Positions 1,640 to 15,811 of a stretch of 64,000 bases of DNA are shown piece after piece. The notes beneath the pieces are model-generated. The model was given only the letters and a program-made list of their open reading frames with translations, was not told the DNA's origin and ran no database searches. The DNA is from a virus. Its lineage: Duplodnaviria; Caudoviricetes. The translations under genes and the position numbers were made by a program. Positions within the stretch are counted from its first letter, which is position 1. Every line of letters starts with the position of its first letter. The stretch lies in IMG/VR virus record IMGVR_UViG_3300032093_000005. The stretch is one strand, 5' to 3'.

Positions 1640-2428
1640 TCAGTTAAAAAATTGATCTAAAGGATTAAAAGATCGGATTCGTTCCATTGCCATATTAACA
1701 TACTCCTCATGAATTTCAACTCCAAGATACTTCCGTTTCAAATCAATACATGAAATTGCAGTTGTCCCAGATCCCATAAAAGGATCAAGAACTAAATCAC
1801 CAATGTAACTGTAATACTTAATGATACGATCAGACAGTTCTTTTGGATAGGGCGCTAAATGATCTGAATGTGTTTCTGGATTGATCTTCCATACGTTAGA
1901 TCGTTCATAGTCTTCATTGACAAGTGATTGCTCTAATACATCACCATCATAAGATCGAACAACTTTATCAATTAAGAATGGTGCTGGTTTCTGAAATACA
2001 AAGATAGTCTCAGTTACAATGTTTGGTTTGTATGCAACTGGTTTGCGATGTTGAAAGAATCCACCATTACGATTAATTGATGCACCCTCAGGTTTTAACC
2101 AGATAATATCATCAATGTATTTCCATCCCATTTGTTCCATTAAAGTAAAAAAATGAAATGGAATTGCAAGACGTTTACTCTCATGTGCCCGTGATTGTCT
2201 TGCCTCAATCACTGGAGAAAGATTTACAACACACATTCTACCTGGTTGAGTGACTCTTAACACTTCAAGAAACACATTTCTCAAGAAGTCAAGATACTCT
2301 TGGTAAGTTGGCCAAGTTGAATATTCTCTGGCGTTATAATATGGAGGAGAGGTGCAAGTAAGATGCACACTCTCACTTTCTATTTCTTTTAAAAGTCGGG
2401 ATGAATCTCCCTGTAAGATCTGATCCAT
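1640..2428 (-). CDS. DNA methyltransferase, N4-C/N6-A family, beta class
   Basis: Catalytic motif IV TSPPY precedes SAM-binding motif I LDPFMGSGTT; H-APYP motif; SPPY suggests N4-methylcytosine. Confidence 0.92.
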   Translation of the reverse strand: MDQILQGDSSRLLKEIESESVHLTCTSPPYYNAREYSTWPTYQEYLDFLRNVFLEVLRVTQPGRMCVVNLSPVIEARQSRAHESKRLAIPFHFFTLMEQMGWKYIDDIIWLKPEGASINRNGGFFQHRKPVAYKPNIVTETIFVFQKPAPFLIDKVVRSYDGDVLEQSLVNEDYERSNVWKINPETHSDHLAPYPKELSDRIIKYYSYIGDLVLDPFMGSGTTAISCIDLKRKYLGVEIHEEYVNMAMERIRSFNPLDQFFN

Positions 2429-2853
2429 TGAATTTTTCTACTCGATGCTTTGTTACTATCACAATCACCGTTAATTAGTGATTTTCGACCATGACACAGT
2501 TTACAATAAGTTTTAACATTGTCTGGAATATTGTTATGATGATCGCCATCTAGATGGTCAAGATCCAAACTGTTTTCAAATCCAACCCATCCATCTTTAG
2601 GAACTGGACAAGTCCATCCAAGATGTCCATCATGATTTTCACAATATGATTTCTTATGAATTGTAACTCCAGGAATTACTTTACCATTCTTTCGAGCACT
2701 AGTGCAACGGGAACATTCGGATTTGAAAGACCAATACTTCCATTCTCGCACAAGAACTTTATTATTACAACCATCATTGACACATGTAGGAAGTTCATGC
2801 CCTTCGACAAAGAACTTCTCTTTCATTTGTTTGGAAAGACTCAACATAATCAA
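2389..2853 (-). CDS. HNH endonuclease with Cys-rich N-terminus
   Basis: LDLDHLDGDHHNNIPDNVKTYCKLCH HNH motif; several CxxC-like pairs; start codon uncertain. Confidence 0.8.
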   Translation of the reverse strand: MIMLSLSKQMKEKFFVEGHELPTCVNDGCNNKVLVREWKYWSFKSECSRCTSARKNGKVIPGVTIHKKSYCENHDGHLGWTCPVPKDGWVGFENSLDLDHLDGDHHNNIPDNVKTYCKLCHGRKSLINGDCDSNKASSRKIQWIRSYREIHPDF

Positions 2854-15112: not shown

Positions 15113-15145
15113 AGGGGTTTTCCCATATCTTATATTTATTTTTAG

Positions 15146-15427
15146 TAGGAGCGGCGAGACTTGAACTCGCATAGCCGAAGCCGACGGATTTTCTTACCAC
15201 TACGACTTTCGCCGCCTCATAGAGTTTGTGGTCTGGACTATACCTTCACCATATCTTGTGATTTAGGTGCTCCCCGTCTAGTCTCTACACCTTCATCTTT
15301 CGATGCTTGGCTCGGTATTGCCATTTTACAGGTTTCACCGAATTTGAGGAGTTACACTCATGAGGTTTCCCAAATGAGGCTCAATTTTACATAAGTCCGT
15401 TGTGTCTACCAATTCCACCACGCTCCC
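15146..15427 (-). tRNA. trnL: tRNA-Leu(UAA), split by a group I intron (exons 15427-15393 and 15192-15146)
   Basis: Exon 1 GGGAGCGTGGTGGAATTGGTAGACACAACGGACTT + exon 2 AAAATCCGTCGGCTTCGGCTATGCGAGTTCAAGTCTCGCCGCTCCTA gives anticodon arm ACGGA-CTTAAAA-TCCGT, a long variable arm and a paired acceptor stem; no encoded CCA. Confidence 0.93.
15193..15392 (-). ncRNA. group I (IC3-like) self-splicing intron, 200 nt, no ORF
   Basis: P AAATTCGGTGAAA, Q AATACCGAGC, R GTGTAGAGACTAGACGG, S GAAGGTATAGTCC; P7 GACTA/TAGTC; terminal G; U.G at 5' splice site with TTGAG guide. Confidence 0.92.
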
Positions 15428-15440
15428 GTGATGTGAGACC

Positions 15441-15469
15441 ATTATAACTCAAAGAGTTGTAGTGGTCAA
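15441..15469 (-). promoter_or_regulatory. sigma70-type promoter for tRNA-Leu
   Basis: TTGACC-N17-TATAAT, 13 nt upstream of the tRNA 5' end. Confidence 0.75.
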
Positions 15470-15470
15470 G

Positions 15471-15544
15471 TGCAGGTTGTGGGGATCGAACCCACCTTAG
15501 CCGAATTATGAGTTCGGTGCTTTCAACCAGAGAGCTAAACCTGC
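15471..15544 (-). tRNA. tRNA with CAU anticodon (elongator Met or lysidine-type Ile2)
   Basis: GCAGGTT/AACCTGC acceptor, CCGAA-CTCATAA-TTCGG anticodon arm, GGTTCGATCC T-loop; lacks the initiator C1:A72 mismatch. Confidence 0.9.
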
Positions 15545-15548
15545 ACGA

Positions 15549-15620
15549 TGGGAACAGCGGGAGTTGAACCCGCGCTAAGCACTTATAAGGTGCCCGCTCT
15601 AACCATTAAGCTATGCTCCC
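15549..15620 (-). tRNA. trnI: tRNA-Ile(UAU)
   Basis: GGGAGCA/TGTTCCC acceptor, GGCAC-CTTATAA-GTGCT anticodon arm, GGTTCAACTCC T-loop. Confidence 0.88.
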
Positions 15621-15637
15621 ATAAAAAACTCAGAGTA

Positions 15638-15811
15638 TCACTGAGCTTCGTTGTTTAATTCAGTGTGTATTCGTATCAGATCGTCGTCTGCGGGCATCAT
15701 TACTGCTGCCTTTCCATTCTCATCCACAATACCTAAAGTTTCTCCATTTTCAACTCGTCCCATCAGTTCATCAAACCTCTCTTGAAACTCTTCCACTGTG
15801 AAAATTTCCAT
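15638..15811 (-). CDS. Phd/YefM antitoxin-like small protein (57 aa), not in ORF track
   Basis: Manual translation MEIFTVEEFQERFDELMGRVENGETLGIVDENGKAAVMMP matches the Phd-fold pattern (E-----F-EL---V--GE---I---G-----L-P). Confidence 0.6.
   Translation of the reverse strand: MEIFTVEEFQERFDELMGRVENGETLGIVDENGKAAVMMPADDDLIRIHTELNNEAQ

What the first reader, a model, noticed from the sequence alone, without database searches (positions are those of the whole stretch)
15146..15427. Phage tRNA-Leu(UAA) interrupted by a minimal 200-nt group I intron
The intron sits at the same anticodon position (U^AA) as the classic cyanobacterial/plastid trnL intron. It keeps P/Q/R/S with compensatory changes: P4 is TTCGGT/ACCGAG versus the usual TTCAG/CTGAG. 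It also shows P7 GACTA/TAGTC, GAAA tetraloops on P2, P6 and P9, and the terminal G. At 200 nt it is about the size of the ~205-nt Azoarcus ribozyme, among the most compact group I introns. It has no ORF and its own sigma70 promoter. Standard tRNA scans would probably miss it. Presence in a phage suggests virus-host intron exchange and possibly splicing-gated tRNA supply.
Basis: partly seen in the sequence, partly recalled or inferred. Interest (0 to 1): 0.85.

Follow-up and report, generated by a model that had tools for sequence, protein, structure and literature searches.

The report
Self-splicing intron in phage leucine tRNA
A freshwater cyanophage carries a leucine tRNA gene split by a small self-splicing (group I) intron; it belongs to a large, apparently undescribed phage-borne lineage of this classic intron, which sits in unrelated tRNA bodies and often lies beside a DNA-cutting enzyme gene.

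Summary
On the minus strand, 15427-15146 is a tRNA-Leu(UAA) gene split between U34 and A35 by a 200-nt ORF-less group I intron (15392-15193). Rfam scores it 58.5 bits against a cut-off of 50. ARAGORN finds it only with introns allowed. In 32 related phage introns, 99.8% of cells in 39 core pairs are standard pairs, and 19 pairs show compensatory changes.

The window is a freshwater T4-like cyanophage related to S-SRM01. The intron is not a one-off and not the smallest: phage copies run 185-263 nt, and 73 IMG/VR contigs share its exact 34-nt P4-P5 core.

Its nearest relatives are all viral. One 97.5%-identical intron sits at the same locus in a different, short-armed tRNA(UAA). S-SRM01 has that short tRNA without an intron. 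In 401 cyanobacterial genomes the best partial matches were 76-81% identical, so I found no recent host donor.

A homologous HNH endonuclease gene lies just downstream of the tRNA in 21 of 60 relatives, and inside the intron in a huge phage. This window has neither.

Self-splicing is inferred, not shown. This scan has flagged similar phage elements before on other DNA.

The parts
15441..15469 (-). Sigma70-type promoter-like site, TTGACC-17 nt-TATAAT. The -10 element ends 13 nt before the tRNA 5' end.
   Evidence: 11 of 12 matches. The 45 nt containing it are 98% identical to S-SRM01. It is kept in sister contigs although the tRNA body downstream differs.
15393..15427 (-). 5' exon of tRNA-Leu(UAA): G1 to U34. 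Its last three bases (CUU, 15395-15393) form the exon strand of P1; the U at 15393 makes the U.G wobble at the 5' splice site.
   Evidence: The U.G pair is kept in 31 of 32 related introns.
15193..15392 (-). Group I intron, 200 nt, no ORF. Internal guide GAG 15382-15380. P2 15378-15357 (GAAA loop 15369-15366). P3 15351-15346 with 15275-15270. P4 15342-15337 with 15316-15311. P5 15332-15331 with 15322-15321. P6/P6a 15310-15290. P7 15283-15279 with 15240-15236. P8 15269-15247 (CCUAAA...UAUGG motif). P9 15231-15197 (GAAA loop 15210-15207). Terminal G at 15193.
   Evidence: Rfam 58.5 bits. Helices mapped on the sequence. Covariation and controls.
15146..15192 (-). 3' exon of tRNA-Leu(UAA): A35 to discriminator A73, with a long variable arm closed by a UUCG loop and a G1.U72 wobble at the acceptor end. 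CCA is not encoded.
15470..15621 (-). Upstream members of the same small tRNA cluster: tRNA-Met(CAU) 15544-15470 and tRNA-Ile(UAU) 15621-15547.

Best explanation
This is a working gene for tRNA-Leu(UAA) carried by a freshwater T4-like cyanophage. It is interrupted by a compact group I ribozyme of the kind found in bacterial pre-tRNAs (the Azoarcus/Anabaena-like architecture).

How it most likely works:
1. Inferred: transcription starts at the early, sigma70-type promoter.
2. Shown by sequence: the last bases of the 5' exon (CUU) pair with the intron's internal guide GAG to form P1, with a U.G wobble at the splice site.
3. Inferred from how this intron family works: a free guanosine attacks the 5' splice site, then the terminal G (15193) docks in P7 and the exons are joined.
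4. Inferred: host enzymes trim both ends and add CCA, and host LeuRS charges the tRNA.
5. Shown: UUA is the commonest leucine codon in this 37%-GC phage (36% of Leu codons in long ORFs). That a phage-supplied tRNA for UUA helps translation is inferred.

The intron belongs to a lineage that circulates among phages and moves independently of the tRNA body it sits in. The likely vehicle is a homologous HNH endonuclease. It is free-standing just downstream of the tRNA in many relatives and sits inside the intron in a huge phage. This fits the published 'collaborative homing' scenario, in which the intron disrupts the endonuclease's target site and so protects the gene. The window's copy has the intron but no adjacent endonuclease.
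For: Identity and fold:
- Rfam hit above the gathering score.
- Exact U(-1) and terminal-G boundaries give a canonical tRNA-Leu.
- 99.8% standard pairs, with 19 of 39 pairs showing compensatory changes in 32 viral relatives. P7 covaries A-U (23 sequences) with U-A (9).
- The GAAA loops of P2 and P9b and the P8 CCUAAA/UAUGG motif are conserved; the P6a loop varies.

Phage setting: tail-fibre and baseplate neighbours, and 77.5% identity to S-SRM01.

Codon use: UUA is 36% of Leu codons; window GC is 37%.

Mobility:
- A 97.5%-identical intron sits in exons only 54-60% identical to the window's, between flanks 84-96% identical.
- At least 6 switches between short-armed and long-armed tRNA bodies on the intron tree.
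- At least 5 tRNA(UAA) bodies hold introns with the same 34-nt core.
- S-SRM01 has an intronless allele in the same slot.

Endonuclease:
- The intron ORF in LR756511 is an HNH.
- Homologues start about 40-60 nt after the tRNA, on the same strand, in 21 of 60 assessable relatives.

RNA:
- A freshwater metatranscriptome holds a 165-nt contig 100% identical to the intron interior, but essentially none of the flanking genes.
- The same run holds a 235-nt contig with a 205-nt period from a related intron. That is the form a circular molecule takes in a k=31 assembly.
Against: - No splicing assay exists, and no spliced junction of this exact tRNA was seen. Only assembled contigs, not raw reads, could be laid.
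- P5 is only 2-3 pairs, so splicing might need a protein helper or high Mg.
- No HNH or GIY-YIG gene matching the Pfam models was found in the 85-kb record, which is only about 36% complete. Mobility of this particular copy is therefore inferred from relatives.
- The mosaic among window, L100 and L067 could come from ordinary homologous recombination between intron copies, without any endonuclease.
- The bootstrap in the tree had not fully converged.
Confidence: 0.8

Rival explanations
1. Recent capture from the host: the phage picked up the split trnL(UAA) gene, exons and intron together, from a cyanobacterium it infects.
For: - The exons are of the cyanobacterial class II type. They are 85% identical to a small-genome picocyanobacterial tRNA-Leu(CAA), with the same acceptor stem and D arm.
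- In the tree the window's intron clade groups with cyanobacterial trnL introns (99/95).
Against: - In 401 sampled cyanobacterial genomes the best partial matches were 76-81% identical, against 97.5% in other phages.
- The small-genome picocyanobacteria examined have intronless tRNA-Leu(UAA) genes.
- The same intron sits in short-armed tRNAs that look nothing like cyanobacterial tRNA-Leu.
- The cyanobacterial clade lies across a long branch of 1.03 changes per column.
Confidence: 0.1
2. Regulatory gate: splicing is slow or conditional (for example dependent on GTP or Mg level, or on a host or phage protein), so the intron times or limits the supply of tRNA-Leu(UAA) during infection.
For: - The intron lies behind an early-type promoter, and UUA codons are frequent in the phage's long ORFs, which include tail-fibre and baseplate genes.
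- Sister phages carry either intron-bearing or intronless alleles, so the intron is not required for the tRNA as such.
Against: - Nothing in the sequence points to a sensor.
- The presence/absence pattern, and the link with an endonuclease gene, fit a selfish element better.
- By general knowledge, compact introns of this architecture (Azoarcus, Anabaena) splice fast on their own in vitro.
Confidence: 0.1
3. Dead relic: the intron no longer splices, and the split gene is a pseudogene carried along passively.
For: - P5 is very short.
- The acceptor stem has a G1.U72 wobble.
- No direct evidence of spliced tRNA.
Against: - Near-perfect maintenance of all core pairs through compensatory changes across 32 diverged copies.
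- Exons conserved at 96-97% between the window and L067.
- G1.U72 is also kept in the short-armed tRNAs.
- The promoter is conserved.
- The intron sequence is present in RNA libraries.
Confidence: 0.04
4. Assembly artefact: host DNA carrying a split trnL gene was joined to phage DNA in the metagenome contig.
For: The record is a metagenome-derived fragment, about 36% complete.
Against: - The same slot, with the same promoter and downstream flank, is found in the isolate S-SRM01 and in several independent contigs.
- 13 runs hold at least half of the sampled words of the 2-kb stretch, the best 97%, and the listed holders come from 15 studies.
- Phage structural genes flank it on both sides.
Confidence: 0.01

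Closest known systems
Cyanobacterial and plastid tRNA-Leu(UAA) group I intron (Anabaena/Nostoc type; 'Leu.3Ug' in Williams 2020, bioRxiv 10.1101/2020.01.27.920355)
   Same: - Same insertion site (CUU/AAAA, after U34).
- Same U.G wobble at the 5' splice site and same terminal G.
- Same overall helix plan, P1 to P9.
- The internal guide/P2 start UUGAGCC is seen in the window, in its close relatives and in the one cyanobacterial intron I read in full.
- The two groups join in the tree with 99/95 support.
   Different: - It sits in a phage genome.
- It is shorter: 200 nt, against 217-312 nt in the cyanobacterial copies examined.
- P4 is UUCGGU/ACCGAG rather than CUCAGG/CCUGAG.
- P5 is cut down to 2-3 pairs.
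- Partial-match identity to cyanobacterial copies is at most 76-81%.
- The same intron also occupies short-armed tRNA(UAA) genes.
Azoarcus pre-tRNA-Ile group I intron (about 205 nt, subgroup IC3)
   Same: - Similar size and no ORF.
- Located in a tRNA anticodon loop.
- GAAA loops on P2 and P9, and a CCUAA./UAUGG receptor-like motif in P8. The architectural comparison is from my own knowledge of the Azoarcus structure; the motifs themselves are read.
   Different: Different tRNA, different insertion position and a bacterial host. No direct sequence comparison was run here.
Collaborative homing: cyanophage psbA intron plus a free-standing endonuclease (Zeng, Bonocora and Shub 2009, cited in PMC3984707; the scenario is described in PMC2988022)
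   Same: - An ORF-less group I intron in T4-like cyanophages.
- A free-standing endonuclease gene next to the interrupted gene in some genomes.
- An endonuclease inside the intron in others.
   Different: - The target is a tRNA gene, not a protein-coding gene.
- The enzyme here is an HNH whose cleavage site is untested.
- The window itself carries only the intron.
Phage T4 SegB, a free-standing homing endonuclease acting in the T4 tRNA gene cluster (Brok-Volchanskaya et al. 2008, cited in PMC2988022)
   Same: A free-standing endonuclease associated with phage tRNA genes, promoting their preferred inheritance in mixed infections.
   Different: - SegB belongs to the GIY-YIG family (my own knowledge).
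- No intron is involved in T4.
- No homology was tested here.

Membership tests
Group I intron (Rfam RF00028) | Covariance-model score at or above the curated gathering score | tested here: met
   58.5 bits against 50, E 2.9e-12, full model 1-253 (repeated).
Group I intron (Rfam RF00028) | P1 formed by the 5' exon and an internal guide, with a U.G wobble at the 5' splice site, and a terminal G at the 3' end | tested here: met
   CUU pairs with GAG. The U.G pair is kept in 31 of 32 relatives. The intron ends in G at 15193, and G at the aligned position is invariant in all 32 introns.
Group I intron (Rfam RF00028) | Conserved core P3-P8 including the P3/P7 pseudoknot, supported by covariation | tested here: met
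   P3, P4, P6, P7 and P8 are paired in 31-32 of 32 sequences at every position. Compensatory changes occur in P3, P7 and P8. Slid-partner and shuffle controls are far lower.
Group I intron (Rfam RF00028) | Guanosine-dependent self-splicing | not testable with these tools
   Needs an in vitro transcript and GTP. The only hints are intron-only RNA contigs and one contig of a related intron with circular form.
trnL(UAA) anticodon-loop intron, type Leu.3Ug | Insertion between U34 and A35 of a tRNA with anticodon UAA | tested here: met
   The spliced anticodon loop is CUUAAAA, with the intron after loop position 3.
trnL(UAA) anticodon-loop intron, type Leu.3Ug | Exons form a class II tRNA-Leu (long variable arm, A73) | tested here: met
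   ARAGORN cloverleaf of the spliced sequence. Several close relatives of the intron fail this feature: they sit in 73-nt tRNAs with a short variable arm.
trnL(UAA) anticodon-loop intron, type Leu.3Ug | Phylogenetic affinity with cyanobacterial/plastid trnL introns | tested here: met
   A 17-row clade (6 viral, 11 cyanobacterial) with support 99/95. Caveats: 213 columns, a pattern-selected sample, and a bootstrap that had not fully settled.
Mobile group I intron with its own homing endonuclease | Endonuclease ORF inside the intron | tested here: not met
   The longest sense-strand stop-free stretch is 37 codons. The antisense 77-codon ORF 15161-15394 is a mechanical call over a structured RNA. 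An HNH ORF is present inside the related LR756511 intron.
Collaborative homing pair (ORF-less intron plus adjacent free-standing endonuclease) | Endonuclease gene next to the interrupted gene | tested here: not met
   The window runs from the tRNA straight into the phrog_4134 gene. The feature is met in 21 of 60 assessable relatives.

The most novel reading that the evidence does not exclude
Phages maintain their own lineage of miniature trnL-type group I introns that recognise little more than the anticodon stem-loop of any tRNA(UAA). Together with one family of HNH endonucleases, it forms a complete natural series for the birth of a mobile intron in tRNA genes:
1. an intronless target (S-SRM01);
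2. an intron alone, acting as immunity (this window);
3. an intron plus an adjacent free-standing HNH (L078, L116, L118);
4. an HNH inside the intron (LR756511).

The contest between these forms would also drive replacement of whole tRNA bodies at a conserved phage locus.
Probability: 0.4. Interest if true: 0.65.

Novelty: new member of a known kind. Interest (0 to 1): 0.5.

Why it matters
A 2014 review stated that every intron then known in phages sits in a protein-coding gene, despite the many phage tRNA genes (PMC3984707). This window and my survey show that group I introns in phage tRNA genes are real and common, and are missed by default annotation. Examples:
- at least 42 of the first 118 viral contigs holding the core motif;
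- 73 contigs sharing this intron's exact core;
- the isolates Agrobacterium phage Atu_ph07 and Gordonia phage Daredevil.

Practical consequence: phage tRNA counts are underestimates.

Conceptual consequences:
- Near-identical introns in unrelated tRNA bodies at one syntenic locus, together with intronless, HNH-adjacent and HNH-inside forms, give a tractable natural system. It could be used to test how ORF-less introns spread and how mobile introns arise.
- These 185-205-nt ribozymes are also candidates for small, naturally optimised splicing or circularising scaffolds.

Tried and rejected
- Rfam at gathering threshold found nothing in the two huge-phage loci L001 and L002. Alignment and ARAGORN with introns allowed show they hold the same split gene. 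Absence of an Rfam call is therefore not evidence of absence.
- I first took L014 to be Gordonia phage Daredevil because both records are 90,490 bp. They differ: Daredevil carries a GC-rich tRNA-Lys(UUU) with a 238-nt intron. I withdrew that link.
- RNA evidence: all four RNA runs are held as assembled contigs only. None shows the spliced junction of this tRNA. X22 record 12 reads across ...CGGACUU/AAAAUCC, but its variable arm differs, so it comes from another organism's intronless or spliced tRNA-Leu. Several contigs span unspliced junctions of relatives; these could be precursor RNA or contaminating DNA.
- No Pfam HNH or GIY-YIG hit in the window's own 85-kb record. The ORF at 2389-2853 shares only the HNH motif with the tRNA-linked family.
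- No near-identical donor in 401 sampled cyanobacterial genomes.
- Single-sequence MFE folding of the precursor is unremarkable (z -1.85), as expected for a pseudoknotted ribozyme. I relied on comparative analysis instead.
- Ten literature searches found no description of group I introns in phage tRNA genes. Subscription journals are not covered.
- I did not build a covariance model or use the count of structure pairs. Pair counts and controls were scripted instead.

Full report
**1. What is there**

On the minus strand the window reads, in order:
- tRNA-Ile(UAU), 15621-15547;
- tRNA-Met(CAU), 15544-15470;
- a promoter-like site TTGACC-17-TATAAT, 15469-15441 (11 of 12 matches);
- a split gene: 5' exon 15427-15393, ending ...ACGGACUU;
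- a 200-nt insert, 15392-15193, ending in G;
- 3' exon 15192-15146, starting AAAAUCCGU and ending at A73, without an encoded CCA.

Rfam's group I intron model matches 15402-15216 at 58.5 bits (gathering score 50, E 2.9e-12). Default ARAGORN and the Rfam tRNA model see only the two upstream tRNAs. ARAGORN with introns allowed reports tRNA-Leu(taa) with a 200-nt intron. The spliced sequence folds as a canonical class II tRNA-Leu(UAA), with a G1.U72 wobble and a UUCG-capped variable arm.

**2. Is the ribozyme fold real?**

I mapped P1 to P9 on the sequence:
- P1: CUU pairs with GAG, with a U.G wobble at the splice site.
- P2: GAAA loop.
- P3: CUCCUC/GGGGAG.
- P4: UUCGGU/ACCGAG.
- P5: a minimal helix of 2-3 pairs.
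- P6/P6a: GAAA loop.
- P7: GACUA/UAGUC.
- P8: contains CCUAAA...UAUGG.
- P9: a three-way junction whose P9b arm has a GAAA loop.

In an alignment of 32 distinct phage-borne relatives, 39 core pairs are standard in 99.8% of cells, and 19 pairs show changes on both sides. When the 3' partner is slid by 1-3 columns, pairing falls to 28-42%. Shuffling letters within columns gives 86.4% (sd 0.6, max 88.1). P3 switches among C-G, U-A, G-C and A-U at four positions. The last pair of P7 is A-U in 23 sequences and U-A in 9. P8, P9 and P9b covary throughout. The GAAA loops of P2 and P9b and the P8 motif are conserved, while the P6a loop varies. From my own knowledge of the Azoarcus structure, that is the pattern expected if L2 docks on P8 and L9 on P5. 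This is selection for a folded, active ribozyme. Catalysis itself was not tested.

**3. Whose genome?**

The record is an 85-kb IMG/VR fragment, about 36% complete. Neighbouring genes are a 1736-aa tail fibre, a gp5-like baseplate hub with lysozyme, and other tail genes. The region is 77.5% identical to freshwater Synechococcus phage S-SRM01 (Kyanoviridae). The DNA recurs in freshwater and lake metagenomes: 13 runs hold at least half of the sampled words, and the listed holders come from 15 studies. The window has 37% GC, and UUA is its commonest leucine codon (36% in 35 long ORFs). A phage-supplied tRNA reading UUA therefore makes sense.

**4. It is one of a large phage-borne family**

I applied ARAGORN with introns plus the rule of U before the 5' splice site and G before the 3' splice site. 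That gave the CUU/AAAA arrangement in 42 viral contigs, 2 GenBank huge phages (LR756501, LR756511) and 54 bacteria. Other viral contigs carry introns in tRNA-Met, tRNA-Arg, tRNA-Lys and other genes.

Viral trnL-type introns are 185-263 nt (median near 202). Bacterial ones are 202-847 nt (median near 240). So 200 nt is normal for phages and is not the minimum: L093 has 185 nt.

Two isolated phages also carry unannotated split tRNAs:
- Agrobacterium phage Atu_ph07: tRNA-Leu(UAA) with a 278-nt intron, overlapped by a CDS annotated 'hypothetical protein'.
- Gordonia phage Daredevil: tRNA-Lys(UUU) with a 238-nt intron.

A 2014 review says all phage introns known then lie in protein-coding genes. 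Williams 2020 surveyed bacterial and archaeal genome assemblies, not phage genomes. My other searches found no description of phage tRNA introns. Earlier notes of this scan report similar elements on other DNA.

**5. The intron travels separately from the tRNA body**

The nearest introns are all viral. Identity of relatives to the window:

| Relative | Intron | Exons |
|---|---|---|
| L100 | 97.5% | 57% |
| L078 | 94% | 63% |
| L091, L118, L053 | 92.5% | 57% |
| L067 | 90.5% | 96% |
| Best bacterial (L211) | 78% | 75% |
| Bacterial mean | 65% | 74% |

L100, L091, L053 and S-SRM01 share the window's promoter and downstream flank. L118 shares the promoter only, because an HNH gene follows its tRNA. 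L067 shares the downstream flank (96%) but has a more diverged promoter region (73%). So one syntenic slot holds three states:
- an intronless 73-nt short-armed tRNA(UAA), in S-SRM01;
- a homologue of that short tRNA (88% identical), with the intron, in L100 and others;
- a class II tRNA-Leu(UAA) with the intron, in the window and L067.

Segment by segment, window against L100: promoter 84%, 5' exon 60%, intron 97%, 3' exon 54%, downstream flank 96%.

On the intron tree, the short-armed and long-armed body types switch at least 6 times among 34 viral introns. A 34-nt exact P4-P5 pattern finds 73 contigs. The 36 that I could parse have introns of 198-201 nt in at least five different tRNA(UAA) bodies.

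**6. Relation to cyanobacteria**

In an 85-intron tree, the window's clade of 6 joins 11 cyanobacterial trnL introns with 99/95 support. The cyanobacteria sit on a long branch (1.03 changes per column, 100/100). Twenty-six other viral introns form their own clade (93/93). The Pseudomonadota/Acidobacteriota group is separate, apart from one bacterial intron (L211) and two viral ones (L062, L066) that fall outside their groups.

A BLAST of the gene against 401 evenly sampled cyanobacterial genomes found nothing better than partial matches of 76-81% identity. Small-genome picocyanobacteria matched only in the exons. The copies I examined have intronless tRNA-Leu(UAA) genes. The window's exons are most like their tRNA-Leu(CAA), at 85%. 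So kinship with cyanobacterial introns is deep. I found no recent donor, and the direction of transfer cannot be told without a root.

**7. A linked endonuclease**

The 700-nt intron of huge phage LR756511 carries an HNH ORF in P6. A tblastn search with that protein found homologues (41-59% identity over about 148-155 aa) starting about 40-60 nt after the tRNA, on the same strand, in many viral loci. Among these are the window's close relatives L078, L116 and L118. Among the 73 clade contigs, 60 have enough downstream sequence to judge, and 21 of those have the gene. The window, L100 and L067 do not.

This series matches the published 'collaborative homing' scenario for how mobile introns form (the cyanophage psbA precedent is cited). 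I infer that the HNH cuts intronless tRNA(UAA) genes and that the intron protects its carrier. Neither step has been tested.

**8. RNA evidence**

One freshwater metatranscriptome (X17) holds 54% of the sampled words of the tRNA gene but only 7% of those of the 2-kb surroundings.
- Its 165-nt contig is 100% identical to 15208-15372. That stretch includes the window-specific P8 sequence and lies wholly inside the intron.
- A second X17 contig of 235 nt maps in permuted order with a 205-nt period and a 30-nt terminal overlap. That is the form a circular molecule takes in a k=31 assembly. It comes from a relative that is 91-95% identical over the two aligned pieces.

I read this as a hint of a circular intron RNA, which is a known fate of group I introns. 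I could not see the junction letters. No spliced junction of this tRNA was recovered.

**9. Verdict**

The element is a new member of the known trnL(UAA) group I intron class. Its interest lies in the setting: a phage-circulating, miniature, endonuclease-associated lineage that is widespread yet unannotated.

Noticed in passing
L003 2553-2625 (S-SRM01); L100, L091, L053, L118 exons: A 73-nt tRNA with anticodon UAA but a short variable arm (not the class II shape of tRNA-Leu) occupies this slot in S-SRM01 and several relatives. In the intron-bearing relatives (L100 and others) its acceptor end is a G1.U72 wobble; in S-SRM01 it is G1-C72. Which synthetase charges it is unknown.
   Followed up: partly
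window 15134-15145: Directly after the tRNA lies AAAAATAAATA, close to the T4-type late promoter TATAAATA. It is conserved in S-SRM01, L100 and L067, just upstream of the phrog_4134 gene and the tail-fibre gene. The tRNA may be early-transcribed and the downstream genes late-transcribed.
   Followed up: no
window 15638-15811 (-): A 57-aa ORF just upstream of the tRNA cluster matches the Phd/YefM antitoxin family (Pfam 28.9 bits, just under the 29.8 cut-off; PHROG 375, E 3e-12). No toxin partner is evident next to it.
   Followed up: no
window 1640-2853 (-): A 154-aa ORF (2389-2853) with an HNH-like motif (DHLDGDHHNN...CKLCH) overlaps the end of an N6/N4 DNA methylase gene (1640-2428). It shares only the motif (43% over 49 aa) with the tRNA-linked HNH family and has no Pfam hit.
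   Followed up: partly
L267 953-1314 (Agrobacterium phage Atu_ph07, MF403008.1): This isolated 490-kb jumbo phage has a tRNA-Leu(UAA) with a 278-nt group I intron at the same site and an encoded CCA. The GenBank record instead annotates a 'hypothetical protein' CDS across part of it.
   Followed up: partly
L266 1039-1350 (Gordonia phage Daredevil, NC_048021.1): An unannotated tRNA-Lys(UUU) is split after U34 by a GC-rich 238-nt group I intron. It lies between the integrase gene and small ORFs, with an annotated HNH endonuclease (gp51) about 450 nt downstream.
   Followed up: partly
L005-L122 (IMG/VR contigs with the core motif): Besides tRNA(UAA), viral contigs carry introns with the same core in tRNAs whose anticodon loops read CUCAUAA (Met), CUUCUAA (Arg-UCU) and CUUUUAA (Lys-UUU). 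Fourteen more have the loop UUAUAAA, whose register I did not resolve.
   Followed up: no
L268 (Pelagibacter phage HTVC120P, MH598807.1) 1163-1355: A 78%-identical match to the intron core lies between two adjacent CDSs that are both annotated 'capsid protein'. This looks like an unannotated group I intron splitting the capsid gene.
   Followed up: no
run X17, record 2 (laid on window 15224-15294): A 235-nt metatranscriptome contig of a related intron has a 205-nt period and a 30-nt end overlap. That is the signature of a circular molecule and may be a full-length intron circle.
   Followed up: partly
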